From IMG/VR virus record IMGVR_UViG_3300042455_000638: a stretch of 64,000 nt of DNA; one strand, 5' to 3'. This document shows, piece by piece, positions 9,679 through 23,807 of this stretch; position 1 is the stretch's first letter, and every line of letters begins with the position of its first letter. The stretch comes from a virus. Both the position numbers and the translations under genes were made by a program. The notes below the pieces were generated by a model. It was given only the letters and a program-made list of their open reading frames with translations, made no database searches and was not told where the DNA came from.

Positions 9679-9700
9679 ACAGACCCCACGCCACGCCTCG

Positions 9701-10388: not shown

Positions 10389-10712
10389 ATGACCCCGAGA
10401 GCAAAGACCCTCTACTACCTTGGCTTTACCTCCTACAAAGCCTACCTACGGTCTGCATTGTGGAAATGGATCAGGGAGAAGGTTTTCAAGCAGAAGGGCC
10501 GTACGTGTGCCCTGTGCAGCCGTAGAGCCACTCAGATCCACCATCGGTCTTATGACCGTCTAACGCTCAGAGGGATCATCCTGGACTATCTGGAGCCCAT
10601 GTGCAGCGGTTGCCACCGTATGATCGAGGTGACACCATCAGGCCGCAAGAGGAAGCGGGCGGCTGTGGAGCGGATGTTCGTCAGGCTTAAACGAAAAAAG
10701 CTGGCCCGTTGA
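10389..10712 (+). CDS. HNH endonuclease
   Basis: CALCSRRATQIHHRSY...CSGCHRM matches the HNH C-x2-C...HH...C-x2-C-H pattern. GGAG RBS. Stop lies inside a bidirectional terminator. Confidence 0.6.
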   Translation: MTPRAKTLYYLGFTSYKAYLRSALWKWIREKVFKQKGRTCALCSRRATQIHHRSYDRLTLRGIILDYLEPMCSGCHRMIEVTPSGRKRKRAAVERMFVRLKRKKLAR

Positions 10713-10726
10713 GGCCAGCTTTACTT
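10692..10726. terminator. Bidirectional intrinsic terminator
   Basis: A6 - AGCTGGCC - loop - GGCCAGCT - TTTACTT. Sits where a rightward gene and the leftward operon converge. Confidence 0.6.
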
Positions 10727-11000
10727 AATGCAGATACTTGTAGAGAAGTGTTTACTTATCGTCACTCAACGCACACCTCCGCTTCGACAAACTCGCCCGG
10801 GCCACCGATGTCGCCCGAGCTGCGTACCACGTTAAACCACTGCATCGTCAACCTTTCGTATGTAAGCGTCATTGACCACGACACACTCAACAGTCTGTCT
10901 CACCGCGATCCAGACGTAGCAGCCGAGGTAGAATGGGACGAACCCGACGTTGAAAAGTCTCAACATCCAAATCGGTATCCATTGCATGTTGGGGTGGAGA

Positions 11001-11804: not shown

Positions 11805-12303
11805 AACCCTCTCCCGTAAGAAAAAAGTGAATAGCTCGTGAAGGCCCGATGAGATGCTTCAGCATCCTGAGCCAAGTTTGAATTCTGGTGTGGATCACCG
11901 ACTGATGAACTCCACACCGTTTAGCGATGGAACCTTGTGTCTCTCCGTGGAAGTACCTGAAGAGAACCTCGTACGCAGACGGTAGCTCTTTCCGGATAAC
12001 GTCCCATAGCTCCTCCAGGTTCTCCTCACAAACCTCGGGCCTGTTACGAAACAGCCCGGCCGGTCTAACCGGCCTGTGCTTAGCCAACATCCTCTTTAGA
12101 GTGTAGCTGGCCGTCCAGTAGCATCCGTTGCTCAGCAGGACGTCCTTCTTCGGTGGGTACCGCAGGAGGTTAACCATCGTCTCCTGGACTACATCATCCA
12201 GACCAAGGGACCGGGCCTGTCTGGCCCGGCCGAGGTTGCAAGTGAAGTAGTACCGAACAGACTTCTCGATCTCTTCAGCACTGTACCGTTTGAAGAAACT
12301 CAT
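11782..12303 (-). CDS. Sigma-70 family (ECF-like) sigma factor
   Basis: Region-2-like LDDVVQETMVNLLRY. Region-4 HTH LPSAYEVLFRYFHGETQGSIAKRCGVHQSVIHTRIQTWLRMLKH. ATGA overlap with the upstream gene. Confidence 0.55.
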   Translation of the reverse strand: MSFFKRYSAEEIEKSVRYYFTCNLGRARQARSLGLDDVVQETMVNLLRYPPKKDVLLSNGCYWTASYTLKRMLAKHRPVRPAGLFRNRPEVCEENLEELWDVIRKELPSAYEVLFRYFHGETQGSIAKRCGVHQSVIHTRIQTWLRMLKHLIGPSRAIHFFLTGEGYVKRRVS

Positions 12304-12701
12304 GGCTGGTTAGCGACCTTGATAAACTCATCAGCAACGGCAAAGGCTTCTCTGGCCACGATAGCCCACTGCTCTGCGGACTCACCGACATCGGCCTTGA
12401 CACTACCAATACGTACGTCCTTCAGGAAGTCCGAGATCAGGGCTGGAAACACCGACAGAGCGATTCCTTCGCGGTACTGCTTAGCTGCAATCACTTCCTG
12501 CAGGTTGACGGCTCCACCCTGAGCAGGACACTCCTCAACAAGGTCACAAGGGTCCTCCACATAGGTGTGGTACCGACCACCGTGGGTGTATGTATAGTCG
12601 CCACACACGAATGGATACTCACGGTCACTACCGTTGGCCGTAGTTGGTCCCACGATTTCTCCGTCTCTTCTCTTGTAATACTTACCGATTTCAATCTCCA
12701 C
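12300..12701 (-). CDS. Hypothetical protein (133 aa)
   Basis: Track ORF. GTG start with GGAGGTG RBS. Confidence 0.45.
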   Translation of the reverse strand: MEIEIGKYYKRRDGEIVGPTTANGSDREYPFVCGDYTYTHGGRYHTYVEDPCDLVEECPAQGGAVNLQEVIAAKQYREGIALSVFPALISDFLKDVRIGSVKADVGESAEQWAIVAREAFAVADEFIKVANQP

Positions 12702-12732
12702 AACGCACCTCCAGTTAAACAGTGAGCTGTAA

Positions 12733-13080
12733 TTAGTCTACTTTCATTTTCTCGTCGATGAGATCCAGCGTGTCTTTGAACACCCGGTCGATCATGTCTG
12801 CGGCTTGCATCTTGGAGAAGTAGGGATCGGCTTGGTCCCTGATCCAGAACTTCACGTCATACCTGCCGTCCCGAAGCTTCGCCCGGATGTCGCTGTACAA
12901 CTTGTGCAGAATCTCCTCCTTGAGACGCATCTCCATCCACTCAACGGACATGGCCCCTTCGTAGATGTCAGGGTCCCGCACAGTTCCCACCGCTCGGAGT
13001 AAGACATCGGCCTGCACCTCAGTGGCACGAGTCTCCTTTCGGTAATAGGACTTTATCTCAATGTCTTTTGCTGTGATCAT
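12733..13080 (-). CDS. Hypothetical protein (about 115 aa)
   Basis: Track ORF. GGAGGTGT RBS, with GTG/ATG start at 13078-13083. Confidence 0.45.
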   Translation of the reverse strand: MITAKDIEIKSYYRKETRATEVQADVLLRAVGTVRDPDIYEGAMSVEWMEMRLKEEILHKLYSDIRAKLRDGRYDVKFWIRDQADPYFSKMQAADMIDRVFKDTLDLIDEKMKVD

Positions 13081-13658
13081 CACACACCTCCAACTTTACA
13101 ATGTGGTTTCCAACAGTTATACCCAATATCGTCCACCTGATCAGCAACACTCACAGAACGATGGCTAATCGCATATCCCATTTCGTTCCACTTCTGAGGG
13201 AAGATCACTGAAGCCCCGCCGCTCAGGTCAAACGACCGGCACTGCTGGTCACTGTCATCCACCAGAATCCTGTCCCGCCCGGCAAGCAACCACTTGTAGT
13301 GCGTGAGCACGTAGTTCTTGCTGTGCTTGCTCAGGAAGCCGTGCCTGCGGAGCCAGTTCAACTTGCCCGTCGCGGCCTCATCGTGGTTCCCCGGCGATGA
13401 GCAGTACACGATGTCGCCCTTGGTCTTCAGGTAGTCAACAAGCTCGTGTGCCCAGGGATAGACTGGCAGGTCGTCCCAGAAGTACATCGTGTCGTTGATC
13501 CGCTTCGTGAACTCGTCATCGTCCATGTAATCCTCGAAGAAGTTCCAGTGCTCTACCTGATCGGCTGTGATCGGCAGTTCAGCCGCTGCGATGGCACCCG
13601 ACACGAAGTCGGCCAGTACGCCATCAAGGTCTAAGAAAATGGTTGTCACAGTGAGCAC
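13080..13658 (-). CDS. HAD-superfamily 5'(3')-deoxyribonucleotidase-like hydrolase
   Basis: N-terminal FLDLDGVLADF (DxDGV...ADF) is the HAD motif I signature of the NT5C deoxyribonucleotidase family. Length 192 aa is typical of the family. Confidence 0.5.
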   Translation of the reverse strand: MLTVTTIFLDLDGVLADFVSGAIAAAELPITADQVEHWNFFEDYMDDDEFTKRINDTMYFWDDLPVYPWAHELVDYLKTKGDIVYCSSPGNHDEAATGKLNWLRRHGFLSKHSKNYVLTHYKWLLAGRDRILVDDSDQQCRSFDLSGGASVIFPQKWNEMGYAISHRSVSVADQVDDIGYNCWKPHCKVGGV

Positions 13659-13819
13659 TCCTCCCCGATAGTGATTTCATCATAGCCGTACCGGTCAAAC
13701 TGGTACTGACCCTCTCTCAGACTACGGACCCTGCGATCTGCCTCAATCTCTGTCAGATACACGCCCAGAATGCGTGACCCCTCGCAGTCCCAATACCCCC
13801 GCACAATGTAGACTATCAT
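13646..13819 (-). CDS. Hypothetical small protein
   Basis: Trimmed to ATG 13817-13819 with AGGAGGTG RBS. Confidence 0.4.
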   Translation of the reverse strand: MIVYIVRGYWDCEGSRILGVYLTEIEADRRVRSLREGQYQFDRYGYDEITIGEECSL

Positions 13820-13897
13820 AAAGCACCTCCTGCCCAACAGTATTGCCGAAACGAAAATGCCCGGCAAGAGGTGCCGGGCAGATTCTCATGGGCGAGA

Positions 13898-14110
13898 TTA
13901 CTTGGGGTAGAAGATCATCCCTCCGTGCCCATCCCTTCCCTCTCCGGCACTACACACCGGGCAGACCTCCCAAGCCCATCTACCCTCCCTTTGACAGGTC
14001 TCGATCTTCTTCAGTTCTGCTTGGGTAGCCTCCGCTTCAGAACCACAGTTGCCGCAGCTACCGACCCACAGGTTATCGCTCGGCTTGGTTCCGACTTTAG
14101 TAATCTTCAC
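13898..14110 (-). CDS. Zinc-ribbon protein (CGNC...CPVC)
   Basis: Track ORF. GTG start after AGGAGGTGA. Confidence 0.45.
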   Translation of the reverse strand: MKITKVGTKPSDNLWVGSCGNCGSEAEATQAELKKIETCQREGRWAWEVCPVCSAGEGRDGHGGMIFYPK

Positions 14111-14274
14111 CAGTCACCTCCTTGGTAAAGTAGTGGGTCAGGAGACCTCATAACGATAGCTGGTTTAGCCGGGTCAAACTGCCAAGCCGGTGTAGGACCA
14201 AACGATCGTTGTACGTAACACTGCCAGTTCATGTTCAGCAACCAAGTATCTGCCCACATCCGAGTAAACACCAT
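14107..14274 (-). CDS. Hypothetical small protein
   Basis: Trimmed to ATG 14272-14274 with GGAGGAG RBS. Confidence 0.35.
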   Translation of the reverse strand: MVFTRMWADTWLLNMNWQCYVQRSFGPTPAWQFDPAKPAIVMRSPDPLLYQGGDW

Positions 14275-14310
14275 CTCACTTCTCCTCCAGGAACACGTTA
14301 ACGTCATTCA

Positions 14311-14844
14311 TCAGTCCACCAACCTTTCTGCCCTCGACAGAAACACTGGAACACATTGGCTGGCCATGATAGGCCGTACCGCCAGAACTTTAATACCCCG
14401 TTGATCAGCGGAGTCTGAGATACGAACCTTTATCGTATTGCAGATGCTCCACACACCTCGGGTTTTGATCTCGTCAGCCGTAAGCTGGCTGATGATCTTT
14501 ACTAACCCGGAGCCGCCGATGAGTTCAAGATGGTTCTGCCCACTGAACTGCATTGTCTCGTACTTGAGAATGTCACTGATCTCATACTCGATACCGATCC
14601 TCCACTGCCACGTCTTATCGTCTGAAGACGTGACAGCGATGATTGCCGTCTCGCATATCTGGCTGACAACAGTGTGGACCCTCCAGTACTGAATGAGCGG
14701 CCAGATGATGTACAGCCCCGGACCCTTGGCCCGGCCGTATCTACCGAACCAGTAACAGGCCGCTTCTTCGGTTGGTGCCACGATCGTCGGTCGGGGCATC
14801 AACTCCCAGAGGAACTGCACTATTTGGGTCAGTAGATCAAGCAC
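14311..14844 (-). CDS. SPFH/band-7 (stomatin/HflKC-like) domain protein
   Basis: IVAPTEEAACYWFGRYGRAKGPGLYIIWPLIQYWRVHTVVSQ...AIIAVTSSD resembles the SPFH core (V.e.eaAVv.RfGr....GPGLhf.iP.I..v..V..R). GTG start. Confidence 0.4.
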   Translation of the reverse strand: MLDLLTQIVQFLWELMPRPTIVAPTEEAACYWFGRYGRAKGPGLYIIWPLIQYWRVHTVVSQICETAIIAVTSSDDKTWQWRIGIEYEISDILKYETMQFSGQNHLELIGGSGLVKIISQLTADEIKTRGVWSICNTIKVRISDSADQRGIKVLAVRPIMASQCVPVFLSRAERLVD

Positions 14845-14894
14845 TTTTTCTCTCCATCCGCCTATGTGGGTATTGCTTCAGTTCAGCGGTCATG

Positions 14895-15779
14895 TCAAGC
14901 TCCTGACGTTGGTGTTAGCTCGATGTGGGTTACGACACGTCGCTGTTTCTTGACGGTGAACATGTCATACGTAAGTTTCAGCCACCAGGCTCCGAGTGGT
15001 TTCGGCGGCTTGCCGGTTCCAACGTGCCACCCACCTACCCCGGAACCGTATTCTTCTTTGTACGTCGACGTCTTGACGTACCATGAGCTACGCTGCTTGA
15101 CCTCACCGTAACTATCGAGGTACACCTTCATGTTCTCCTGTACCCACCGCTGGTGGACGTGACCACTCAGCATGATATCGGCCCCATCGACGTAGGCGTT
15201 CTGTCGTTGTGCCTGGATGGTGTCCTGTGTGACGGGACCGCCACCTCCGTACCCGTGCATGTGCCAGAGAACTCGTGAGGTCCTGTGGCCCGACCCATCA
15301 TCCAGCAGGAACTTGATCCAACCTGTGTAGCCCGTCACAGGAACTACAGCTCCAGTCTTCGTCCTGAGGGCCTGAGCGAGACGTTCGGTCAGGTTGGTCT
15401 CGTGTCGACCGAGGATGCTCGTCTCGTGGTTGCCGTACCCGAGAGCAACGATGTTCTTGGCGTACGGCTCATAGAAGTCGGCAGCGGTGTTTACCAGTGA
15501 GTCGAGGTACTCACCGTTCTGGTGTTCGGGTCGAATGTCAGACTTGTTTGACCGTTTGTCGTACTTGCCTTGCATTGCACAGAACAAGTCTCCTATGTCA
15601 ATGATCCCGGCCTCACGTTCGAGGGCCTCGTCCAGGTGTCTCTTCTCAAGTTCATGGTTACAGTGTGGGTTGTCGTGGTGCCGGTCTCCAGATAGCAGGA
15701 ACCAGTGCTCTTTCTTTTTGCTACAGTCGAGAGCTACTTTTACGACGTTAGGACTTACACCTTTTTCCAACGTGAACAT
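14895..15779 (-). CDS. Calcineurin-like metallophosphoesterase
   Basis: Motifs LSGDRHHD, GNHE and GHVH in the canonical order. Trimmed to ATG 15777-15779. Confidence 0.6.
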   Translation of the reverse strand: MFTLEKGVSPNVVKVALDCSKKKEHWFLLSGDRHHDNPHCNHELEKRHLDEALEREAGIIDIGDLFCAMQGKYDKRSNKSDIRPEHQNGEYLDSLVNTAADFYEPYAKNIVALGYGNHETSILGRHETNLTERLAQALRTKTGAVVPVTGYTGWIKFLLDDGSGHRTSRVLWHMHGYGGGGPVTQDTIQAQRQNAYVDGADIMLSGHVHQRWVQENMKVYLDSYGEVKQRSSWYVKTSTYKEEYGSGVGGWHVGTGKPPKPLGAWWLKLTYDMFTVKKQRRVVTHIELTPTSGA

Positions 15780-15853
15780 GCTGGGCTCCAGAAAACAAAG
15801 TTGGTGAACCGGAGTAATCCTACCGAAAGGAATACCCCGGCACAACCCGTTTC

Positions 15854-16165
15854 CTACTCCTGAGAAGATGTATCCGACGATTCATGGACACGAAGCACGA
15901 ACGTGCGGGCCTCACACGCCGTAACCTTACACCGCCTGAAACCTATTTCCATCAGGGGGCCGTTATCGACAGCCGCAAGAGCCATAACCCGCTTCCTGGC
16001 TGTCTCCATGTTCCCCCCGTATATCTCGACAACAGTCCTGGCGATCTCGTTAGCCGTACGGGGGTTCTCGTCTGTGCAGGCCACAACACGCTCGTTGACC
16101 TTCAGTACCTGCAGCTTTGACGCAGTCGACCCCCAATACTTCTCACGGGCAACCTCATTCTTCAC
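15854..16165 (-). CDS. Hypothetical protein, possible winged-helix
   Basis: Track ORF. GTG start after AGGAGG. Confidence 0.4.
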   Translation of the reverse strand: MKNEVAREKYWGSTASKLQVLKVNERVVACTDENPRTANEIARTVVEIYGGNMETARKRVMALAAVDNGPLMEIGFRRCKVTACEARTFVLRVHESSDTSSQE

Positions 16166-16961
16166 GGTTCGCCTCCTTCTTCAGCGTTTCGTGCATCATC
16201 CCCTGGACGTTGAACAGCATTGCGTTGAGAGCCTCAACGATGTCAACCTGCTCGCCGCTGTCCGGAGAAATCGCCGTGCCGCCACGATGGATAGTCCATA
16301 CGTCCATGAAGTGGCGGAACATCGACTTCATGTAGACGTCAATCGGGATTCCCTTCTGCCAGTTGTCGCTATCCCGCGTCGTACCGTCCTTCTGCTTGCG
16401 GTGAGACGTCATGTAGTCCCCAAAGGCTTTGATCACGGTTGGTGACAAGAACCCCTCGTAATCGTTCTTTGAGCTGTCGAGGTTACGTGTCGCCCCAGTC
16501 TCGAAGGTTCGGATCTCTCCGATAGTCGGTTCGGGTGCGGCGGATTCCTCGACCAGATCAAACCAGAGGTTAGACATCTCCGGGGCAACACCTTGGACAC
16601 GTAGTATTTGTGTCGTGGTCGAATTACCGTATTCAAGGGCCACGTCGCGGACCTTGAATACGTCCCGGACAGTCTCTGTAGACCCCCAGTCCCGTCCTAA
16701 AGTTATTTCCGTGCCGTACGCAAGTTTACGAAGTCGGACCTTGTCTCCCGCCTTGAACTTCCTCCGGGGTTGTACTACGTTTGTAGTAGCAGCCGGTTCC
16801 TCTGGCGGCTTTTCGGGTATGACTTCGAACCAAATACCCGGCATAATGTCTCGACATTTCCGGTCGTCATACACCCCGAAGTATCCGGACGGGGTTACAT
16901 CAACCTCGTACACTTTGCCGGTCGTCATGTCCCGATGGGTATAGATGAATCTCGCTTTCAC
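16155..16961 (-). CDS. Protein with C-terminal phage dATP/dGTP pyrophosphohydrolase-like (DUF5664-type) domain
   Basis: C-terminal half carries YEGF...AFGDYMTSHRKQKDGTTRDSDNWQKG...YMKSMFRHFMDVWTIHRG...SGEQVDIVEALNAMLF. This matches the KYG.RNWEKG...ALMRHL..W..GE..D.ESGLPHLAH signature. Confidence 0.45.
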   Translation of the reverse strand: MKARFIYTHRDMTTGKVYEVDVTPSGYFGVYDDRKCRDIMPGIWFEVIPEKPPEEPAATTNVVQPRRKFKAGDKVRLRKLAYGTEITLGRDWGSTETVRDVFKVRDVALEYGNSTTTQILRVQGVAPEMSNLWFDLVEESAAPEPTIGEIRTFETGATRNLDSSKNDYEGFLSPTVIKAFGDYMTSHRKQKDGTTRDSDNWQKGIPIDVYMKSMFRHFMDVWTIHRGGTAISPDSGEQVDIVEALNAMLFNVQGMMHETLKKEANREE

Positions 16962-17512
16962 TACACTTCCTCCTTCACAAAGATGCCTTCTGCCGTCAGG
17001 TGCCCCTTCCGGTCCTTGATCTGATCATAAGCCTGCTTGACGCAGTCCACAAGAGTTGTACCAGCTTCTTCCGCAATCTGAGAAATGTAGGCCACCATAA
17101 GCAGCCAGGTCATCCAGTACGAGCCTTGACCTTTACAAGCGGCCCCAAGTGGGATCAGAGCCTTCTGCAGTCTGTCGACGGGGTTGGGCACCGATGAAGG
17201 TACTACTGATGACCTCTGAGACGTAGGTGTCACCAGATCGCAGTACTCCTCGTCGTAGAGTGTGCTACCGACGATCAACGTGACGTAGATGTCTCCGATA
17301 GCGTCCATGATCTGCTCGTGAGTCCGTTCGTGTTGGTAGTCCCAGTCCGAGACCTTGTAAGCCATTAGATATCGCATTAGATACAAGGCTTCCACCAGCT
17401 CCTTCACCTCCTCTGCTGTCTTAAACGCCTGAGCGTAAGCCGAGCTGTGTGCCAGAATCTTCCGATCGTCTGCCCACTTAACGATCGCCAAGTTCAGTTC
17501 GTGCAACGTCAT
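16961..17512 (-). CDS. mazG: MazG-like nucleoside triphosphate pyrophosphohydrolase
   Basis: Acidic helix motifs typical of MazG (EEVKELVEAL, DAIGDIYVTLI). Trimmed to ATG 17510-17512 with GGAGGT RBS. Confidence 0.45.
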   Translation of the reverse strand: MTLHELNLAIVKWADDRKILAHSSAYAQAFKTAEEVKELVEALYLMRYLMAYKVSDWDYQHERTHEQIMDAIGDIYVTLIVGSTLYDEEYCDLVTPTSQRSSVVPSSVPNPVDRLQKALIPLGAACKGQGSYWMTWLLMVAYISQIAEEAGTTLVDCVKQAYDQIKDRKGHLTAEGIFVKEEV

Positions 17513-17548
17513 ATCAACCTCCGAATAAAATGTGAATGTCACCGGGCG

Positions 17549-17577
17549 TATCATCGCCCCGGTAAGACTTTTGTCAA
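17549..17577 (-). promoter_or_regulatory. Candidate leftward sigma70-like promoter (TTGACA-17-ATGATA) for the MazG operon
   Basis: Minus-sense TTGACAaaagtcttaccggggcgATGATA, about 35 nt upstream of the MazG-like start. The -10 is embedded in hairpin CACCGGGCG...CGCCCCGGTG. Confidence 0.35.
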
Positions 17578-17644
17578 ACCATCGTTGGTAAGATTCTTTA
17601 CCATAGGAACTGGTGTACAAACGTCTGGTGCAGCTACTGCATCT

Positions 17645-17660
17645 TGGTGCCCGGGCACCA
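17645..17660. promoter_or_regulatory. Perfect 16-bp palindrome TGGTGCCCGGGCACCA
   Basis: Seen directly in the divergent control region. Confidence 0.4.
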
Positions 17661-17827
17661 GCTTTCCGGATGCAGTTGACGATTGTACACTGTAGACTGG
17701 TAAAGATTTTTACTGTCCGGTACTGGTCTAACCTGGTATTACCGTCTACGGTTTAACCGGGCTTTGGCCCGGTAAACGTGGATGGGAGTTATTTAGAACC
17801 TTTCTCTGACAAATTTTTAGTATGGAT

Positions 17828-17856
17828 TTGACAGGCCAGCCTGGTAGACCTACTAT
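17828..17856 (+). promoter_or_regulatory. Consensus sigma70-type promoter TTGACA-17 nt-TACTAT, driving primase and the rightward operon
   Basis: -35 at 17828-17833 and -10 at 17851-17856 with a 17-nt spacer. Confidence 0.55.
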
Positions 17857-17886
17857 GCCCGCATCGCGGGCTAGTGGTCTACCAGG
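17840..17886. promoter_or_regulatory. Nested inverted repeats over the promoter -10 (CCTGGTAGACC ... GCCCGCATCGCGGGC ... GGTCTACCAGG)
   Basis: 11-bp outer arms at 17840-17850 and 17876-17886. 6-bp inner palindrome at 17857-17871. Operator-like. Confidence 0.45.
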
Positions 17887-18037
17887 TCTCGCTGGTTAAA
17901 CCGGCTTAAAGTTTTACCAGTGATTAGGTTTCTAACGAAACCCTTCAGGCTAGCCTGGCCTAACCTCGGGTATAACGTATAAGGTCTAACTGGTTTAACC
18001 TGTCTACCCGGTATGCAAAAAACCAAGGGTCCCCGCG

Positions 18038-18102
18038 ATACCGATCGGTATTGAAACCAAGGTTCCGGCGACTGAGGAACCCTCTGTGTCCCGATCGGTA
18101 AC
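18038..18102. promoter_or_regulatory. Two CCGATCGGTA sites (12-bp palindrome TACCGATCGGTA at 18039-18050; second site at 18091-18100) flanking IR GGTTCC...GGAACC
   Basis: Identical 10-mers 50 bp apart, about 35-85 bp upstream of TTGACA at 18136. Confidence 0.4.
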
Positions 18103-18198
18103 ATTCTCAAGTCTTGGCATCGCTGAAACCGAGACTTGACAACCCCGCCATCTGAATAGACACTATCTCCGTCCGACTTCCCCCGGAGATAGATAAAG

Positions 18199-20466
18199 AT
18201 GAATGAATTGCAAGAGCACCGCCAGGCGGCGTTGCGAACGGCTGGGCACCTCTGTCGCCACGGCATCCGTGTATTCCCACTCAGGTATGGCTACAAAGAT
18301 AAGTACCTTCACGAAGGCGACTGGGACGCCTACGCGACGAACAACATCAACACGTTCGTAACGCTCGTACCATCTGGACAGTTCAACCTCGCCATCTCAT
18401 TCGGACCGGAGTCTAATCTCTGTGACGTTGAGCCGGACGATGCAAACGCTGTTAAGATCCTTGACGAGATGATCAAGGAGTCCGGCGTCAAGACGATCAT
18501 GTACGCCACGTCTCGACGTGGTACGCATCATCTCTTCAAGTACGAACCTCGGCTGGCCGTATTCAACAAGGCCAACCTGAAGGTCAGCAACATCGAGTGC
18601 CGTCTCGGTCTCTACAACGAGAAGAACAAGCGACGACAGTATTCGGTAACGCCACCGTCGTTGCACCCGGATACTGGAGAGTTTTACAACTGGATAGAGG
18701 GGCACGCACCCTGGGACGTTGACCCAGCACCGATGCCAGAGAACATCATCCAGTTCTTCCTTACCAACTACACGGACAAGGACTACTCAAAGGCCGATGT
18801 CGTGTCAACCGGTGAAGGGTTTATTCCCGGCGAAGGCTACCGTCACGACTGGTTGCTGAAGTTCTCCAAGGAGCTTTACACCAAGTGGATGCTACCCCGC
18901 AACCATGTCGAAGACTTGTGCCGGTACATGTCACAAGCCATCGGTTCATACGAGATGGAGGGCCGAGGCGAGCATGAGATTAAGAACCTCTTCAACAACC
19001 TCCAGCGGCCGGTAGATCCGCTGAAAGAGTTAACCGCCGAGATCAGCATGGAGGACGTCAACGACGTTCTGGAAACCATGAGGTCCATGCAGGCAGCAAC
19101 CAATGCTGGCCAGTCACCAGAGATCCCGTCACACATCTTCCCAGCCGTCATTGAGGAAGCCAGTCAGAACGCAAAGCTAGCGGGCTACCCGAGGAATCTA
19201 TTTCTACATGCGGTCCTGTGCGTCACGTCGCACGCACTGGGGCAGGCCGTACGAGTCAGAGTTAGTCCAGACCACAGTACAATGGGTCTGCAGATGTTTT
19301 CATTCGGAGTGGGAGGTTCCGGGACGGGGAAGAGTAAGACCTTATCGGCCTTGCTAGGACCGGTCTCCCACTCCGAAAGTGTTACAACAGAGGGGAGCCC
19401 CGAAGGGCTTGTCTCCCTCATGAGTCGGTTCCAGCGGGGGATCATGCTGGAGTTCACCGAGGGTAAAGAGTTCTTCAAGATGCTCGGCAAGTATGGACCC
19501 AACGCTGGGCAGGGATCAGACAACAGTCTGTTCCACAAATGTTGGTCCGGTGACAAGATCAAGAGGACTCTGCAGAAGGGCACCTTCGGGGTACAGAGCC
19601 CGTTCCTCACAGTCTGTGCAGCCATCCAGAAGATTAACCTGAACCAGATGCCGATCAACGATTGTATGGACGGGCTCCTACCGAGAATGTTCGTCTATCC
19701 AATCGGTGACGTGCCAGCCAAAGAAGATCCCGCAGCCATAGCCAAGGTTCAGGAGTTCTTACAGCAGTGGTACGAGATCGTAGGGAGACTGGAGTCGGTG
19801 AAGCCGTCCATCGGCCTGCCATCAATCTCAGGTCTCCTCGCCGGTGCGGGCGTGGCTGTCAAGCCACTCACGATGACACTGGACCCTCAAGCCCGAGAAT
19901 TGTGGCGAGAGTATGCTGCCCATAAGAAGTCTCCGCAGACGCTCAGCCAGTGGCCAGAGGATCATCCGTACCGAGCAGACGTGGTTAGACATGCTGAGAT
20001 CGCGTTACGTACGTCAGCGGACCTTGTGATACTGGACTGCGGGTGTGATAAGCGGTTCTGGGAGTTGAACCAGGTTGGCAACCAGGATCACGGTAACATC
20101 AACAAGGATTGGATGCAGAAGTCCATCGACTTCATGGAGCACAACTGGTACCAGAAGCAGAAGCTGGTCGACGGCATCGTTGAGTCAGCTTTCGCGGTAG
20201 CCAGCGGTAACTACATGCTGGGTCGAGAAGAATCGGTACCAGCTCGGTTCGCCGTACAAGCGGCCGACCGGCGTCGACGTGTCGAGAAGTCATTCGGGGA
20301 GGTGTGGACCCTGAGAGAGTACTACAGTGTTCTCAAGTTGAAGAAAGATGAAGCCAGGAAGGAACTGGACATGTTTCTTCGAGAGGGCACTGTCGTAGAA
20401 TTGCCAATGCAGGACGGACAGAAAGCCGCCCGATTCAAATTTTTAGGAGAGATAGATGACAAGTGA
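18199..20466 (+). CDS. Bifunctional primase-polymerase (PrimPol N-terminal domain) fused to a P-loop NTPase (helicase-like) domain
   Basis: N-terminus (IRVFPL...CDVEPDD...TSRRGTHHLF) resembles the PrimPol D-x-D and T-x-G-G-x-H motifs. Walker A GGSGTGKSKT in the C-terminal half. First gene downstream of the TTGACA-17-TACTAT promoter. Confidence 0.55.
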   Translation: MNELQEHRQAALRTAGHLCRHGIRVFPLRYGYKDKYLHEGDWDAYATNNINTFVTLVPSGQFNLAISFGPESNLCDVEPDDANAVKILDEMIKESGVKTIMYATSRRGTHHLFKYEPRLAVFNKANLKVSNIECRLGLYNEKNKRRQYSVTPPSLHPDTGEFYNWIEGHAPWDVDPAPMPENIIQFFLTNYTDKDYSKADVVSTGEGFIPGEGYRHDWLLKFSKELYTKWMLPRNHVEDLCRYMSQAIGSYEMEGRGEHEIKNLFNNLQRPVDPLKELTAEISMEDVNDVLETMRSMQAATNAGQSPEIPSHIFPAVIEEASQNAKLAGYPRNLFLHAVLCVTSHALGQAVRVRVSPDHSTMGLQMFSFGVGGSGTGKSKTLSALLGPVSHSESVTTEGSPEGLVSLMSRFQRGIMLEFTEGKEFFKMLGKYGPNAGQGSDNSLFHKCWSGDKIKRTLQKGTFGVQSPFLTVCAAIQKINLNQMPINDCMDGLLPRMFVYPIGDVPAKEDPAAIAKVQEFLQQWYEIVGRLESVKPSIGLPSISGLLAGAGVAVKPLTMTLDPQARELWREYAAHKKSPQTLSQWPEDHPYRADVVRHAEIALRTSADLVILDCGCDKRFWELNQVGNQDHGNINKDWMQKSIDFMEHNWYQKQKLVDGIVESAFAVASGNYMLGREESVPARFAVQAADRRRRVEKSFGEVWTLREYYSVLKLKKDEARKELDMFLREGTVVELPMQDGQKAARFKFLGEIDDK

Positions 20467-20910: not shown

Positions 20911-21095
20911 CCAAGGTCACGTTCTGTTTGATCGGTAGAGCCGGGTGCAACATCCACTTCGTGTGGGACGATGTTGGACCCGGCCTTTACGTTCAATGGT
21001 CTGACAGTGAAGAACTGACCGGCCGGATCGTGCGGGAAGGCGATGGTACTTTCCCGGACAAGTACTTTGCACATTTGACGGAGGTGTTAGCGTGA
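20907..21095 (+). CDS. Hypothetical small protein
   Basis: ATG at 20907 overlaps the upstream stop (ATGA). Confidence 0.35.
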   Translation: MTKVTFCLIGRAGCNIHFVWDDVGPGLYVQWSDSEELTGRIVREGDGTFPDKYFAHLTEVLA

Positions 21096-21664
21096 ACGTG
21101 CTTGTTGCGTGTGAGTACAGCGGACGGGTGCGAGATGCCTTCCGCAAACTTGGCCATGATGCTTGGTCCTGCGATATCATCGACTCGGAGACACCGAGCG
21201 AGTACCACATCAAGGCCGATGTTCTCAGCGTTCTCAACTGCGGCTGGGATCTGATCATCGCTCACCCACCTTGTACGTACCTCTGCAACAGCGGAGTCCG
21301 TTGGTTGTACACAGAAGAGGGGCGTCTCAAGAAGATGACCGCTGCTGCCGGTTTCTTCAAAAGATTTCTCGAAGTTGACTGCCCGAGAGTCTGTATTGAG
21401 AATCCGATCATGCACAAGCACGCCAAGGTTATCATCGGTGTAGACTACACCCAGATCGTTCAACCGTGGCAGTATGGCCACGGGGAGACAAAGGCTACTT
21501 GCCTCTGGTTAAAGGGTTTGCCAAAGCTGGAACCGACAAACATCGTTGAAGGGCGTGAGGCCCGGATACATATGATGTCACCGGGGAAGGACCGGGGTAA
21601 GAAGCGGTCTGAGACGTATCAAGGTATTGCCGACGCGATGGCGGCACAGTGGGGCAGTTTATGA
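21092..21664 (+). CDS. Minimal DNA C5-cytosine methyltransferase-like protein
   Basis: IAHPPCTYLCNSG resembles C5-MTase motif IV (PC). VCIENP resembles motif VI (ENV). No convincing FxGxG motif I, so function is uncertain. Confidence 0.35.
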   Translation: MNVLVACEYSGRVRDAFRKLGHDAWSCDIIDSETPSEYHIKADVLSVLNCGWDLIIAHPPCTYLCNSGVRWLYTEEGRLKKMTAAAGFFKRFLEVDCPRVCIENPIMHKHAKVIIGVDYTQIVQPWQYGHGETKATCLWLKGLPKLEPTNIVEGREARIHMMSPGKDRGKKRSETYQGIADAMAAQWGSL

Positions 21665-23199
21665 GCACATGGGTCTACGCACGAGTATCAACCCTCGACC
21701 AGTACGTCAACGGGTACTCCATCGACCAACAGGTTCGGGTGTGCCTTGAGTACGCCAAGAACAACGACTACCTGCTTGGTCTTGAGACCAACTGCGACCT
21801 GCCCGGTGTCTTCATTGACGGCGGTAAGTCAGCCTTCAAGAAGAAGCTATGCCAACGGCCGGGTGGGCTCATGCTGCTCGGCAACGCTAAGCCCGGCGAC
21901 GTCATCATCGCGTTGGCCACCCACCGTCTGTTCCGCCAGTTCAACGACATGGTTGCTGTGATGGACCAGTGGGTACAGAACGGCGTGACGGTGAAGTTCG
22001 TCGACTACCCGACGCTCAACACCGACACAGCCAATGGCAAGGCGATGCTTTACATGATGGCGGTCATGGCTCAGCTAAGATCCGAGTTGATCTCAGCCCG
22101 AGTCAAAGAGTCACGAGTCATCGCAAGGACGAAGGCCCCCGAGAGGCCAAAGCCCAAACCCGTCGAGACCATCTGCTCATCAAAAGATGTCGGTGCTATC
22201 CTACAGCAGATGCAGCGTGACCGTGAAGCGGACAAGTACAAGTTCACGGGAAGGGTCCACGCATACGTCCGTGTATCCACGAACGACCAGACTGTTGAGC
22301 ATCAAGTCAACCTGCTCACAAAGATGTTGCCCGACGATCTGCGTGGAGCTGAGATTGTCTGGTACAAGGACGAAGGGGTGTCAGCCTTCAAGACCAAGTT
22401 CGAGAAGAGAAAGGCTGGGGGCGAGATGCTCAAGGCACTGAAGCCCGGCGACATGGTTGTGGCGTGGCGACCAGACCGTCTCTTCAGGTCAATGGTCGAC
22501 GCTAACCGAGTGGTCGATTCGATCCACAAGACCGGGGCGTCCCTGATGACCGTTGAGGGCGATCTGCGGACAGACAAACCACAGGGCAAGATGCTCATGC
22601 AGATGCTGGCCATGTTTGCCGAGATCGAGTCACAGGACATCTCACGCCTGACAAGACTCGGTAACTTCGGGGCCATTGGTATCAACCCGAAGATGCAGGC
22701 GATGCGTGTACCGAAGCTCCTGCGTGAGATGAAGAAACACTTCAACCAGAAGCACTACCACTTCGAGAACATTTTCACAGCCGACGAACGGTTCTACATG
22801 CACATCGAGCTTCACCTGACCGCGAAGAACTATCGTAGTCGGAAGGAGGCTTGCCGGGTCATCAGTAACAAGTGGCTGGCGAAGAAAGGTCTACCACCGG
22901 TACAGGGTGAGTACGGCGAACCTTGTAAGAACTACGCAAGAAGAATCCACAACATGCAGAAGGTGGAGTTCACCGAACGACGTCATCGGTTGTGTGAGCG
23001 GTTGAAGAAGCACCCGGACGAAGTGAGGTATCCGTTGAGTACAGAGACGGCTTGTCAGCTCGTGAGGAACCAGACAGAGTTCCTTCGTGTTGCGAAGATG
23101 TTTCCGGGGCGGCTGAAGGATAAGCAGTCACTGACGATGCTGGCGTCATCGTGTACGTCACCAGAGGCTGCAGTAGATTTCATGGGGAGACTGGGATGA
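21661..23199 (+). CDS. Serine recombinase with two tandem resolvase-type catalytic domains
   Basis: Two complete catalytic cores, at about aa 5-150 and 205-340. Each has YARVST.DQ / YVRVSTNDQ (Ser nucleophile), D.G.SAFK, R.DRLFR (R-x2-R) and a ...AE.ES..IS.R helix E. A unique C-terminal domain of about 170 aa follows. Confidence 0.65.
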   Translation: MSTWVYARVSTLDQYVNGYSIDQQVRVCLEYAKNNDYLLGLETNCDLPGVFIDGGKSAFKKKLCQRPGGLMLLGNAKPGDVIIALATHRLFRQFNDMVAVMDQWVQNGVTVKFVDYPTLNTDTANGKAMLYMMAVMAQLRSELISARVKESRVIARTKAPERPKPKPVETICSSKDVGAILQQMQRDREADKYKFTGRVHAYVRVSTNDQTVEHQVNLLTKMLPDDLRGAEIVWYKDEGVSAFKTKFEKRKAGGEMLKALKPGDMVVAWRPDRLFRSMVDANRVVDSIHKTGASLMTVEGDLRTDKPQGKMLMQMLAMFAEIESQDISRLTRLGNFGAIGINPKMQAMRVPKLLREMKKHFNQKHYHFENIFTADERFYMHIELHLTAKNYRSRKEACRVISNKWLAKKGLPPVQGEYGEPCKNYARRIHNMQKVEFTERRHRLCERLKKHPDEVRYPLSTETACQLVRNQTEFLRVAKMFPGRLKDKQSLTMLASSCTSPEAAVDFMGRLG

Positions 23200-23477
23200 C
23201 GCTGAAAGAAAAGATTCTTGAACTAAGCGGCGAGTATCTGTTGGTCCACAAGTCACACATCAGAACCATGCAGGTGTATGACATCGCTAAGAGCGGGTAT
23301 CTGACCCGGGCTGACATCATGGCGATGGGCAGCGATATATGTCCTGACGTCGAGATCGTGTACTCCAAGCTCAGCATGGAGGACCTTCTGAAGCAGCACG
23401 AGGATTGGACTGTAGACGAACTGATCAGGTATCTTGAGGCACCAAAGCCTGAGCCCACACAATCAGATCCGTCCTGA
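23196..23477 (+). CDS. Hypothetical protein (93 aa)
   Basis: ATG overlaps the recombinase stop (ATGA). Followed by a strong intrinsic terminator. Confidence 0.5.
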   Translation: MTLKEKILELSGEYLLVHKSHIRTMQVYDIAKSGYLTRADIMAMGSDICPDVEIVYSKLSMEDLLKQHEDWTVDELIRYLEAPKPEPTQSDPS

Positions 23478-23667
23478 ATATCTGAAGACGACCACCCAAC
23501 CAGAATGACCCGAGGTAGCAACGCACCTCGGGTCTTTTTTTGTTCTGTACCCCTTTGAGGCACCAGTTGCGAACGGTATCCGTTGTCACCTCAATGCCAC
23601 GTTGGCTGAGCCAAGCGACAACCTCTTTCGGGGATAGGTGCGGCGGTTCATTCTCTACATTCAACAC
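23425..23667 (-). CDS. Small HTH DNA-binding protein (MerR/AlpA/excisionase-like)
   Basis: LSPKEVVAWLSQRGIEVTTDTVRNWCLKG is a typical HTH. GTG start after GGAG. Divergent from the capsid cassette. C-terminal 30 aa read through the plus-strand terminator hairpin, so the true length is uncertain. Confidence 0.4.
   Translation of the reverse strand: MLNVENEPPHLSPKEVVAWLSQRGIEVTTDTVRNWCLKGVQNKKRPEVRCYLGSFWLGGRLQIFRTDLIVWAQALVPQDT
23507..23541 (+). terminator. Intrinsic terminator
   Basis: GACCCGAGGT - 8-nt loop - ACCTCGGGTC followed by T7. Confidence 0.7.
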
Positions 23668-23807
23668 CTGTAACTCCGTCTGGGGGTAAAACCGAAGAAA
23701 CCGAAAAAGCCGAATCTAGGTAGTTTGTAAACATCTTGCTATTGCAATGCAAGTCTAAAAAGATTCTCATGCTTGGGAATGTTTCACCCCAGACATAAGG
23801 ATCAGGC

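What the first reader, a model, noticed from the sequence alone, without database searches (positions are those of the whole stretch)
17520..18198. Palindrome-dense divergent control region with a consensus promoter buried in nested operator-like repeats
This region lies between the leftward MazG operon and the rightward primase operon. It contains:
- a perfect TTGACA-17-TACTAT promoter (17828-17856), whose -10 sits inside nested inverted repeats (11-bp arms CCTGGTAGACC/GGTCTACCAGG around GCCCGCATCGCGGGC);
- a 16-bp perfect palindrome TGGTGCCCGGGCACCA;
- three GGTTTAACC / GGTTAAACC sites;
- two identical CCGATCGGTA sites, one a 12-bp perfect palindrome, flanking a GGTTCC...GGAACC inverted repeat;
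- a second TTGACA near 18136;
- a leftward TTGACA-17-ATGATA promoter whose -10 lies in a hairpin.

This density suggests a multi-input genetic switch and/or an origin adjacent to the primase gene.
Basis: seen in the sequence. Interest (0 to 1): 0.6.

Follow-up and report, generated by a model that had tools for sequence, protein, structure and literature searches.

The report
Phage early-promoter and probable origin region
The 686-base gap between the two divergent gene blocks of an uncultured phage is a real, conserved control region, whose core is a host-type promoter built into a long DNA hairpin flanked by short repeats, and it most likely doubles as the start site of DNA replication.

Summary
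Window 17513-18198 is the largest non-coding stretch of the 64-kb window. Its inverted-repeat coverage is 222 nt against 50+-23 nt in shuffles, the highest of 185 tiles.

Fifteen related metagenomic phage loci show which parts are under selection:
- A 47-nt hairpin (H5, 17840-17886) starts 5-6 nt after a TTGACA -35 box. In 12 lineages the 18-23-bp stem and the 3-4-nt loop are kept while the stem sequence is replaced. The -10 box lies in the 5' arm, and the predicted transcription start falls at the loop.
- GGTNTAAC(C)/CCNGGT repeats lie on both sides of an AT-rich patch and H5.
- Two GTAA-N6-TTAC palindromes are the only copies in the window.
- A leftward promoter (P_L) is conserved.
- A primase-proximal promoter (P_R) is followed by an invariant 19-nt leader.

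The CCGATCGGTA pair and the 16-bp palindrome are lineage-specific.

The adjacent gene encodes a Prim-Pol/DUF3987 protein with a predicted C-terminal winged helix, the architecture of self-loading initiators.

Best reading: this is the phage's early divergent promoter hub, and its repeat/AT-rich/hairpin core is the replication origin. A purely transcriptional switch remains a serious rival. No function was tested experimentally.

The parts
17541..17577 (-). P_L, the leftward early promoter. -35 TTGACA is at 17577..17572 and -10 GATGAT at 17555..17550 (16-nt spacer). The -10 lies in the loop of hairpin H1 (17541-17548 / 17555-17563). The Shine-Dalgarno sequence GGAGG (17522..17518) and the ATG at 17512 of the MazG-like gene follow.
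   Evidence: scan; 17533-17610 is nearly invariant in L002, L005 and L007. helix 1: 82% of cells paired, 2 pairs changed on both sides; the gene matches MazG-like PHROGs.
17586..17603 (.). O1, palindrome TGGTAAGATTCTTTACCA (GTAA-N6-TTAC). It lies just upstream of the P_L -35 box.
   Evidence: GTAA-N6-TTAC occurs only twice in 64 kb, both times here. The same motif recurs in the equivalent region of L005, L007, L013, L025 (two copies each), L009, L026 and L022.
17613..17690 (.). Composite imperfect palindrome between O1 and O2. It includes ACTGCATC/GATGCAGT (17636-43 / 17669-76) and the 16-bp perfect palindrome TGGTGCCCGGGCACCA (17645-17660). The sequence is lineage-specific.
   Evidence: helices 3-4: 76% and 67% of cells paired. 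In L013 this interval holds different GCTTCC/GGAAGC repeats.
17698..17715 (.). O2, the second GTAA-N6-TTAC palindrome (TGGTAAAGATTTTTACTG), 112 bp from O1.
   Evidence: (I3).
17719..17778 (.). Left repeat cluster: GGTACTGGTCTAACCTGGTATTACCGTCTACGGTTTAACC. It includes the GC hairpin H4, ACCGGGC-tttg-GCCCGGT (17756-17773).
   Evidence: motif counts; enrichment in relatives. helix 5: 98% paired, mostly invariant. GC-rich hairpins recur at this position in all relatives.
17790..17827 (.). AT-rich patch (25% GC over 17790-17829). Candidate UP element of P_C and/or DNA-unwinding element.
   Evidence: A/T-rich blocks of the type TTCTGACAAAATTTT sit at the same place in all relatives.
17828..17856 (+). 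P_C, the rightward early promoter: TTGACA, 17 nt, TACTAT. The predicted start is near 17863.
   Evidence: a -35-like TTGNCN and a -10-like hexamer at 17-19 nt occur in 11 lineages; the same in L012.
17840..17886 (.). H5, a 47-nt near-perfect palindrome/hairpin: 21 pairs, loop ATC, and two bulged T's that are the first and last bases of the -10 hexamer.
   Evidence: The structure is kept and the sequence replaced in 12 lineages. 12 of 22 pairs changed on both sides. z = -7.6 (+ strand) and -8.4 (- strand). It is the most stable hairpin of the window.
17892..18022 (.). Right repeat cluster, which would also be the 5' leader of the P_C transcript. It contains GGTTAAACC 17894, a GTAA-like half palindrome 17904-17921, hairpin H6 GGTTTC-taac-GAAACC 17927-17942, GGTATAAC 17969, GGTCTAAC 17983 and GGTTTAACC 17992. 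It ends at GGTATGCAAAAAA.
   Evidence: helix 7: 97% paired.
18023..18125 (.). Variable module: two CCGATCGGTA sites (18041-50 and 18091-100) flank hairpin GGTTCC/GGAACC (18061-81). In many relatives a small Cys-rich ORF occupies this position instead.
   Evidence: The module is shared only with L006, L007 and L013.
18126..18198 (+). P_R and the primase leader. GAAACCGAGAC is followed by TTGACA (18136-41), 17 nt, and GACACT (18159-64). The invariant block GTCCGACTTCCCCCGGAGA (18171-89) holds the Shine-Dalgarno GGAG (18185-88). Hairpin H11 (18163-71 / 18184-92) covers that Shine-Dalgarno sequence.
   Evidence: the block is invariant down to 53% primase identity. helix 10: 84% paired; z = -4.1.
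18199..20466 (+). Prim-Pol / DUF3987 primase-helicase with a predicted C-terminal winged helix (about nt 20236-20442). Candidate initiator that would bind the repeats.

Best explanation
Proposed reading. This is the central early control region of a phage from an uncultured clade. Its core very probably doubles as the origin of replication. Nothing below rests on an experiment.

Shown by sequence and comparison:
- Three sigma-70-type promoters lie here: P_L (leftward nucleotide-metabolism operon), P_C (rightward early operon) and P_R (directly before the primase-helicase gene).
- P_C is built into a 47-nt DNA hairpin, H5. The -35 box lies 5-6 nt outside the stem, the -10 box lies in the 5' arm, and the predicted start is at the 3-nt loop.
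- H5 has been kept as a structure through complete turnover of its sequence.
- Short repeats (GGTNTAAC(C)/CCNGGT) lie on both sides of an AT-rich patch and H5.

Inferred:
- The winged-helix C-terminus of the primase-helicase binds the flanking repeats.
- The AT-rich patch and the extrudable palindrome supply the first single-stranded DNA. The helicase loads there, and the Prim-Pol domain primes on the hairpin-bearing strands.
- Transcription from P_C passes through the same DNA and helps to open it, or is switched off by hairpin extrusion. Early transcription and replication start would thus be coupled.
- The GTAA-N6-TTAC palindromes near P_L are operators for an unidentified dimeric regulator.
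- The invariant P_R leader controls expression of the primase gene.
For: Non-coding status and palindrome density:
- This is the largest non-coding gap of the window. No ORF here is conserved.
- Inverted-repeat density lies far above shuffles and above all other tiles.

H5 as a structure:
- Eleven lineages plus L012 keep an 18-23-bp stem and a 3-4-nt loop at a fixed distance from TTGNCN, with different stem sequences.
- 12 of 22 pairs changed on both sides.
- Complementarity runs right up to a 3-nt centre, unlike protein operators.
- The apex is GCGAAGC in L006 and L013. This DNA mini-hairpin motif is reported at primase and initiation sites (PMC13037366).

Repeats and the AT-rich patch:
- GGTNTAAC occurs 6 times against 0.12 expected.
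- GGTNNNAC or CCNGGT is enriched in the same region in 9 of 15 loci.
- The 40-nt patch at 25% GC lies between the two repeat clusters.

Candidate initiator:
- Prim-Pol plus DUF3987, and a winged-helix fold at the C-terminus.

Literature:
- The AEP + helicase + winged-helix replicase of pRN1 needs an intact stem-loop as its origin. The same was proposed for phages BIP-1 and BPP-1 (PMC4234260).
- A C-terminal winged helix in AEP-DUF3987 proteins has been proposed to recognise origins (PMC5862659).
- SaPI Rep and Cch2 bind iterons next to their own genes (PMC7581432).

Distant relatives:
- In the 44% relative L017, CCNGGT repeats flank a GAA-looped hairpin that has no usable -35/-10. The hairpin-plus-repeat association is therefore older than the promoter overlap.

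Other:
- The cumulative GC skew turns at 18-19 kb.
Against: - No experimental datum exists for this clade. The transcription start, protein binding and replication start are all inferred.
- The GC-skew turn coincides with the switch of coding strand, so it does not separate replication from transcription.
- In L012 and in L022/L023 the H5 module stays at the divergence point but is separated from the primase gene by 2-3 genes. That fits 'first rightward promoter' as well as it fits 'origin'.
- The repeat motif is not enriched in L009, L025 or L012.
- H5 arms resemble the flanking repeats in only 3-4 of 10 lineages.
- pRN1-type stem-loops are about 100 nt long and lie downstream of the rep gene.
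- No DnaA or IHF consensus site is present.
- The winged-helix model has only moderate confidence (pLDDT 78, pTM 0.50). Winged helices are common folds.
Confidence: 0.5

Rival explanations
1. Transcription-only control region. H5 is a cruciform-forming palindrome that makes the early promoter P_C sensitive to DNA supercoiling: extrusion would sequester the -10 box and the start site. The GGTNTAAC(C) repeats and the GTAA-N6-TTAC palindromes would be operator arrays for phage or host regulators. The origin would lie elsewhere.
For: - The constant geometry of -35 box, -10 box and predicted start relative to the stem and loop in 12 lineages ties the hairpin to the promoter.
- The two bulged T's of H5 are the end bases of the -10 hexamer. 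The 5' arm never has fewer unpaired bases than the 3' arm. The promoter is therefore under selection inside the palindrome.
- The AT-rich block sits where an UP element would.
- The module follows the divergence point, not the primase gene, in L012, L022 and L023.
Against: - No regulator gene was identified.
- L017 keeps the hairpin and repeats without a promoter.
- Natural sigma-70 promoters gated by a cruciform are, to my knowledge, essentially undescribed.
- This reading does not explain why the adjacent replicase carries a DNA-binding winged helix.
Confidence: 0.3
2. RNA-level elements. The rightward transcript starts upstream of 17840. H5 (about 21 bp, the size of an RNase III substrate) and the neighbouring small hairpins would then be leader structures: processing, stability or attenuation signals, or part of a non-coding RNA.
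For: - The only two internal non-Watson-Crick pairs in H5 (L013, L024) are G.T on the + strand.
- Neighbouring hairpins carry RNA-like tetraloops, for example TTCG in L013.
- The leftward operon carries a family of intergenic two-tier hairpins on the mRNA strand.
- 46% relatives have an intrinsic terminator in the primase leader.
Against: - No promoter-like sequence is conserved upstream of TTGACA. The -35 box sits a constant 5-6 nt from the stem, and the -10 box lies inside it.
- 3-nt loops, including GCGAAGC, are DNA-type apices.
- Repeats occur on both sides of H5 and in both orientations.
- Pairing between the GGTTAAACC and GGTTTAACC copies is not compensated in L005.
- No Rfam match, even at E <= 5.
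Confidence: 0.12
3. Site-specific recombination target for the serine recombinase encoded at 21649-23199 (attP-like, hix/gix-like or attC-like).
For: - A Resolvase-domain protein is encoded 3.5 kb downstream.
- AAACCAAGGTT at 18054 resembles, from my memory, the centre of hix/gix sites.
- The 18020-18125 segment is swapped between relatives.
- GTTTAAC and GTTAAAC fit the loose integron core consensus.
Against: - No second copy of the hix-like motif exists in the window.
- No prophage copy or junction was found in 185,579 genomes.
- H5 has an odd, 3-nt centre, and its sequence is not conserved, unlike recombinase half-sites.
- No tyrosine recombinase is present.
- The position of the GTT/AAC boxes in the stem is wrong for attC.
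Confidence: 0.03

Closest known systems
Stem-loop origin of plasmid pRN1, with the proposed equivalent in Bordetella phages BIP-1/BPP-1 (Berkner et al. 2014, PMC4234260)
   Same: - The replicase combines an archaeo-eukaryotic-type primase (Prim-Pol) domain, a P-loop helicase-type domain and a C-terminal winged helix.
- A large stem-loop is the element whose integrity, rather than sequence, matters.
- It lies near the replicase gene, roughly mid-genome.
   Different: - The stem-loop here is 47 nt, not about 100 nt.
- It lies upstream of the replicase gene, and is separated from it by genes in some relatives. In pRN1 it lies downstream.
- Here it is flanked by repeats and overlaps a promoter.
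- The ATPase domain is DUF3987, not the pRN1 SF3 domain.
- No functional test exists.
Iteron origins bound by self-loading helicase initiators: P4 alpha (ori/crr), SaPI Rep, SCCmec Cch2 (PMC7581432; P4 as summarised in PMC4234260)
   Same: - Short repeats are clustered next to the gene of a primase/helicase that carries its own double-strand-DNA-binding domain at the C-terminus.
- The repeats flank an AT-rich stretch, as I recall for SaPI origins.
   Different: - Repeat spacing here is irregular and the orientation mixed.
- A long hairpin lies at the centre.
- The P4 primase is of the Toprim type.
- Binding has not been tested.
RSF1010 oriV ssiA/ssiB and G4-type single-strand initiation signals (as summarised in PMC4234260 and PMC13037366)
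   Same: - Hairpins exposed after unwinding serve as primase entry sites.
- The apex is of the GNA mini-hairpin type. It is GCGAAGC in relatives L006 and L013, and CCGAAGG in ssiA.
- A palindrome offers a hairpin on each strand.
   Different: - The stem here is much longer.
- The window's own apex (GC-ATC-GC) is not a GNA loop.
- The initiator is a single fused protein, not the separate RepA/RepB'/RepC.
- A promoter overlaps the hairpin.
Bacteriophage N4 early promoters (hairpin promoters for the virion RNA polymerase; PMC4496689)
   Same: - The promoter function is tied to an extrudable DNA hairpin with a 3-nt loop.
- The structure is kept while non-contact stem bases vary.
- A dependence on supercoiling is expected.
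   Different: - N4 stems are 5-7 bp, with a conserved GC-rich heptamer centred at -11, and transcription starts downstream of the hairpin.
- Here the stem is 18-23 bp, sigma-70 -35 and -10 boxes are present, and the start is predicted at the loop.
- No virion RNA polymerase gene was found among the large ORFs scanned.
Lambda-type divergent PL/PR operator region (genetic switch)
   Same: - Divergent early promoters lie in one intergenic region.
- Repeated palindromic sites are present.
   Different: - No repressor or Cro-like gene flanks the region.
- The palindromes do not overlap the promoter hexamers, except H5, which behaves as a structure.
- There is no evidence of lysogeny.

Membership tests
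Sigma-70-type promoter (P_C) | -35 TTGACA-like and -10 TATAAT-like hexamers 16-18 nt apart | tested here: met
   TTGACA, 17 nt, TACTAT (10 of 12). TTGNCN plus a -10-like hexamer (4-5 of 6) at 17-19 nt in 12 lineages.
Sigma-70-type promoter (P_C) | Transcription actually starts about 7 nt downstream of the -10 box | not testable with these tools
   No transcript data. The predicted start near 17863 is an inference.
Iteron-type replication origin with a self-loading initiator (P4 / SaPI / Cch2-like) | Cluster of short repeats found specifically in one non-coding region | tested here: met
   GGTNTAAC 6 times against 0.12 expected; 3 of the window's 5 GGTWWAACC sites are here; enrichment in 9 of 15 related loci.
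Iteron-type replication origin with a self-loading initiator (P4 / SaPI / Cch2-like) | AT-rich unwinding stretch next to the repeats | tested here: met
   17790-17829 is 25% GC and lies between the two repeat clusters.
Iteron-type replication origin with a self-loading initiator (P4 / SaPI / Cch2-like) | Adjacent initiator gene encoding a helicase plus a double-strand-DNA-binding domain | tested here: met
Iteron-type replication origin with a self-loading initiator (P4 / SaPI / Cch2-like) | The initiator binds the repeats and replication starts there | not testable with these tools
   Needs EMSA or footprinting, an origin-plasmid assay, or a marker-frequency analysis.
pRN1/BIP-1-type stem-loop origin | Replicase with AEP primase, helicase and winged helix | tested here: met
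   (weak match to the ORF904 Prim-Pol domain, E 0.07).
pRN1/BIP-1-type stem-loop origin | Large stem-loop whose pairing, not sequence, is required | tested here: met
   Tested by proxy. Covariation in 12 lineages. No mutational test.
pRN1/BIP-1-type stem-loop origin | Stem-loop of about 100 nt lying directly downstream of the replicase gene | tested here: not met
   H5 is 47 nt and lies 313 nt upstream of the gene. No non-coding gap follows the gene.
N4-type hairpin promoter | 5-7-bp stem with a conserved GC-rich heptamer centred at -11, and a start downstream of the hairpin | tested here: not met
   Stems are 18-23 bp, the sequence is not conserved, and the predicted start is at the loop. Features as described in PMC4496689.
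N4-type hairpin promoter | Phage-encoded virion RNA polymerase | tested here: not met
   no RNA polymerase match among the ten largest rightward ORFs. Most of them have no match at all, so absence is not proven.
Lambda-type genetic switch | Repressor or Cro-type HTH genes flanking the operators | tested here: not met
The flanking genes are a MazG-like gene and the primase.
Lambda-type genetic switch | Temperate lifestyle (prophage copies) | tested here: not met
   no relative of the primase in 185,579 bacterial and archaeal genomes. A serine recombinase gene is present.
Known RNA families (Rfam 15) | Covariance-model match | tested here: not met
   Searches (gathering thresholds, whole window; E <= 5, region only): no match.

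The most novel reading that the evidence does not exclude
H5 could define an undescribed class of element: a host-type (sigma-70) early promoter whose -10 box and start site are obligatorily built into a roughly 21-bp DNA hairpin. Hairpin extrusion, not a repressor, would then decide whether the site works as a promoter or as the loading and priming site for an AEP primase-helicase. That would be a structural switch between early transcription and replication start, conserved through complete sequence turnover in a phage clade with no cultured member.
Probability: 0.25. Interest if true: 0.75.

Novelty: new variant of a known kind. Interest (0 to 1): 0.5.

Why it matters
**The clade.** It has no relative among 50,697 deposited phage records, 72,556 plasmids or 185,579 prokaryotic genomes. 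Its biology can only be read from sequence.

**What the comparison gives.** It yields a concrete, testable map of the early control region. It also gives one of the clearest comparative signals that a DNA hairpin is itself under selection at a promoter and probable origin.

**If the origin reading holds.** It would extend the link between AEP + helicase + winged-helix replicases and stem-loop origins from an archaeal plasmid to a bacterial virus group. It would also add a promoter overlap to that picture.

**If the promoter-gating reading holds.** This would be a natural example of a host-polymerase promoter controlled by cruciform extrusion.

**Practical use.** The 17700-18020 segment plus the primase gene is a candidate minimal replicon.

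Tried and rejected
1. A pattern scan of viral contigs with a wrong spacer length (26 instead of 25 N) found nothing and wasted one scan.
2. DNA and protein searches of the phage and plasmid collections found nothing. The genome-contig scan found nothing. The metagenome scan returned one near-identical locus.
3. Hidden protein genes in the window's region are rejected. Only short fragments are conserved, and only in close relatives. The one truly conserved small ORF of relatives is absent from the window.
4. Known RNA families and tRNAs: none.
5. The GGTTAAACC and GGTTTAACC copies as a long-range RNA helix are rejected, because changes in L005 are not compensated.
6. H5 arms as inverted copies of the flanking repeats is not general. 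The similarity is significant only in L009, L024 and L022, and weak in the window.
7. The MAFFT alignment of all H5 variants mis-registers L025 and L026. Pair tables were therefore made from single-sequence folds instead.
8. A hix/gix-like invertible segment is rejected. No partner site exists in the window.
9. DnaA boxes and IHF sites: none.
10. The best are HTH_3 and HTH_31 at E about 0.06-0.08 for 60288-60524.
11. A protelomerase target is rejected, because the palindrome has an odd 3-nt centre.
12. A terminator function for H5 is rejected. No T-run follows on either strand, and the scan found no terminator-like site.
13. The 18107-18139 inverted repeat over the P_R -35 box is not conserved as a structure (helix 9: 53% paired).
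Full report
**1. Setting**

The window looks like most of a phage genome. Leftward genes run from about position 1 to 17512. They include a MazG-like pyrophosphatase, an NT5C-type nucleotidase and a repair-type exonuclease. Rightward genes start at 18199. They include a Prim-Pol/DUF3987 primase-helicase, a DUF551 protein, a methyltransferase-like protein, a Resolvase-domain protein, a portal, a DNA polymerase and an exonuclease.

The finding lies exactly at the divergence point. The non-coding interval is 17513-18198 (686 bp). It is the largest non-coding gap in the window; all others are 277 nt or shorter by a crude gene call. The cumulative GC skew has its minimum at 18-19 kb. That point is also where the coding strand switches.

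No tRNA and no Rfam family is present. Nothing in 50,697 phage records, 72,556 plasmids or 185,579 genomes resembles the region or the primase. The clade is known only from metagenomes.

**2. The observation**

The minor corrections are given in the observation check.

Inverted-repeat density is far above chance:
- Perfect arms of at least 6 nt (loop <=30) cover 222 nt, against 50+-23 nt in 300 dinucleotide shuffles.
- Arms of at least 8 nt cover 108 nt, against 9+-12 nt.
- The region ranks first among 185 tiles of equal size.
- The nested repeat at 17840-17886 (H5) is the most stable simple hairpin in 64 kb. As DNA it folds at -22.2 kcal/mol (z = -7.6) on the + strand and -22.3 (z = -8.4) on the - strand.

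**3. Relatives**

The primase protein recovered a graded series of relatives at 91, 88, 81, 81, 64, 59, 57, 56, 53, 46 and 44% identity. Fifteen usable loci were fetched. Every one has a long non-coding region (about 500-870 bp) at the divergence point. The length itself is therefore conserved.

A six-frame ORF comparison shows no conserved protein gene inside the window's region. A small Cys-rich ORF of 59-82 aa is well conserved in L002, L005, L009, L022, L024 and L025. It lies between the repeat block and the primase promoter, and it is missing from the window.

**4. What is conserved**

*(a) H5 and P_C.*
- In the window and ten other lineages, and also in L012, a TTGNCN hexamer is followed after 5-6 nt (8 nt in L009) by a hairpin. 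The stem has 18-23 pairs. The loop has 3 nt in nine lineages and 4 nt in two.
- The stem sequences are unrelated between clades. Examples of 5' arms: CCTGGTAGACCTACTATGCCCGC (window), CCCCTAATGCTGTTAGACTGC (L024), CCTCTACTAAGTTAACATGGC (L025), CCCCCAGACAGCTATACCTTGT (L022).
- Almost every stem rank shows 2-5 different Watson-Crick pair types. On the MAFFT alignment of the closer relatives, 12 of 22 pairs have changes on both sides and 85% of cells are paired.
- The best -10-like hexamer at 17-19 nt from the -35 box always falls in the 5' arm. A start 7 nt further on falls in or next to the loop in all lineages.
- In the window clade, the two bulged T's of the 5' arm are the first and last bases of TACTAT. 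The 5' arm never has fewer unpaired bases than the 3' arm. The hexamer is therefore kept at the cost of perfect symmetry.
- Complementarity runs up to a 3-nt centre and the sequence turns over completely. A protein operator does not behave this way. Selection acts on intrastrand pairing.
- The apex is GCGAAGC in L006 and L013. This is the classic DNA mini-hairpin, reported at G4-type and ssiA priming sites and in N4 promoters (PMC13037366).
- Only two internal non-Watson-Crick pairs exist. Both are G.T on the + strand. That is too few to decide which strand folds.

*(b) Repeats.*
- GGTNTAAC occurs 6 times against 0.12 expected from the rest of the window.
- GGTNNNACC occurs 5 times against 0.37 expected. 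CCNGGT occurs 11 times against 2.4 expected.
- Three of the window's five GGTWWAACC sites are here.
- The repeats form a left cluster (17719-17778) and a right cluster (17892-18012), in both orientations.
- GGTNNNAC and/or CCNGGT is enriched in the same region in 9 of 15 loci. The enrichment is strong in the window clade, L024, L026, L016 and L017. It is absent in L009, L025 and L012.

*(c) AT-rich patch.* The AT-richest 40 nt (25% GC, 17790-17829) lie between the left cluster and the -35 box of P_C. A/T blocks occupy this place in all relatives.

*(d) GTAA-N6-TTAC palindromes.* The motif occurs only twice in the window, at 17588 and 17700. It recurs in the corresponding region of seven relatives. 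These sites behave like sequence-conserved operators.

*(e) P_L.* P_L and its surroundings (17533-17610) are almost invariant in the closer relatives.

*(f) P_R and its leader.*
- TTGACA, 17 nt, (G/A)A(C/G)ACT is followed by the block GTCCGA(C/T)TTCCCCCGGAGA, which contains the Shine-Dalgarno sequence. The block is invariant down to 53% primase identity.
- A hairpin that covers the Shine-Dalgarno sequence shows some compensation (helix 10).
- In the 46% relatives an intrinsic terminator sits in this leader.

*(g) Not conserved.* These elements are lineage-specific:
- the CCGATCGGTA pair;
- the GGTTCC/GGAACC hairpin (shared only with L006, L007 and L013);
- the 16-bp palindrome;
- the 18107-18139 repeat.

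**5. The neighbouring protein**

This is the architecture described for replicases of mobile elements, where the C-terminal winged helix is proposed to recognise the origin (PMC5862659).

For the prototype, pRN1 ORF904, an intact stem-loop is the element required for replication. The authors proposed that proteins with AEP, SF3 helicase and winged-helix domains assemble at a stem-loop, also in phages BIP-1 and BPP-1 (PMC4234260).

SaPI Rep and SCCmec Cch2 bind iterons beside their own genes (PMC7581432).

**6. Interpretation**

*Shown.* The region is non-coding and conserved. It carries two divergent sigma-70-like early promoters plus a primase-proximal one. It also carries a hairpin under structural selection that overlaps P_C, repeat clusters around an AT-rich patch, and operator-like palindromes near P_L.

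*Inferred.*
- The repeat / AT-rich / hairpin / repeat core is the origin used by the adjacent initiator.
- H5 acts as DNA, either as a cruciform or as hairpins on unwound strands. It could serve helicase loading or priming, or it could gate P_C. These roles are compatible with each other.

*Two observations favour the origin reading.*
- The 44% relative L017 keeps CCNGGT repeats around a GAA-looped hairpin with no usable promoter.
- The replicase carries its own DNA-binding domain.

*Two observations favour the transcription-only reading.*
- The strict geometry of promoter and hairpin.
- The module stays at the divergence point, not next to the primase gene, where genes have been inserted (L012, L022, L023).

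I give the combined promoter-plus-origin reading 0.5, the transcription-only reading 0.3, an RNA-level reading 0.12 and a recombination site 0.03.

**7. Comparison with known systems**

The region works like a blend of three kinds of element:
- an iteron origin (P4, SaPI, Cch2);
- a stem-loop origin (pRN1, BIP-1);
- a hairpin promoter (N4).

It fails defining features of several:
- pRN1 type: the position and size of the stem-loop do not fit.
- N4 type: stem length, a conserved heptamer, start position and a dedicated polymerase do not fit.
- Lambda-type switch: there is no repressor or Cro gene and no sign of lysogeny.

I file it as a new variant of a known kind: a phage early-promoter/origin region. 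The -10-in-stem, start-at-loop hairpin is the unusual feature.

**8. Limits**

Everything functional is inferred from sequence. The host is unknown. The promoter calls assume a sigma-70-type host polymerase. The winged-helix model has moderate confidence. The repeat consensus is loose.

Noticed in passing
window about 665-720, 2725-2780, 3613-3668, 4601-4656, 5813-5868, 6437-6492 and 7485-7540, minus strand: A family of at least 7 similar two-tier hairpins. The outer stem is GAGAG../..CTCTC, the internal loop carries TGTGACAG and GATCGTG, and the inner stem is GC-rich with a TGCG-like loop. Each lies between leftward genes and ends just before a GGAG ribosome-binding site. Three copies are preceded by TTGACC at 6-8 nt. 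They look like RNA-level intergenic elements (processing or stability sites), not sigma-70 promoters, because no -10 box is present.
   Followed up: partly
L002 5741-5959, L005 3739-3957, L009 3698-3946, L024 2246-2446, L022 2050-2247, L025 2244-2423; absent from the window, where 18023-18125 takes its place: A conserved small Cys-rich ORF of 59-82 aa with two Cys pairs, zinc-ribbon-like. The only family hint is a weak RecR_ZnF match (E 0.03). It lies between the repeat block and the primase promoter in many relatives. In the window, L006, L007 and L013 it is replaced by a non-coding module.
   Followed up: partly
L007 about 2395-2480: At the same variable position L007 carries a 28-codon hydrophobic mini-ORF (MGWLLLAIVVLLILSLGDDEYFDPPSHV).
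   Followed up: no
window 18171-18189: A 19-nt block, GTCCGACTTCCCCCGGAGA, would be the predicted first 19 nt of the P_R transcript and includes the Shine-Dalgarno sequence. It is invariant down to 53% primase identity and is far better conserved than the coding sequence. It may be a binding site for a translational or transcriptional regulator of the primase gene.
   Followed up: partly
L014 about 2715-2765 and L016 about 2905-2950: In the 46%-identity relatives a canonical intrinsic terminator (GC stem followed by a T-run) lies between the primase promoter and the primase start codon. This suggests attenuation or antitermination control there.
   Followed up: no
window 13080-17512 (minus strand) and the equivalent genes in L005, L006, L007 and L025: The leftward early operon is rich in nucleotide-pool enzymes: a MazG-like pyrophosphatase, an NT5C-type 5'-nucleotidase, and in relatives a dGTP_diPhyd_N domain protein. 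A methyltransferase-like gene lies at 21092-21664. Together they hint at modified DNA bases in this clade.
   Followed up: no
window 18020-18032, 18054-18066 and 18124-18133: There are three copies of (G)AAACC(A/G)AG. The middle one is the palindrome AACCAAGGTT, which from my memory resembles the centre of hix/gix invertase sites. The third copy abuts the P_R -35 box and is conserved in relatives. No partner site exists elsewhere in the window.
   Followed up: yes
whole window and all fetched loci: The clade has no detectable relative in the deposited phage, plasmid or genome collections searched. Most large structural ORFs have no PHROG match.
   Followed up: partly
window 23668-23807: This is a second, small divergent intergenic region next to a lone leftward 80-aa gene (23425-23667). 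That gene is conserved in L005, L007 and L009 and has only faint HTH-like hits. The region holds one of the two GGTWWAACC-type sites that lie outside the finding (GGTAAAACC at 23685).
   Followed up: no
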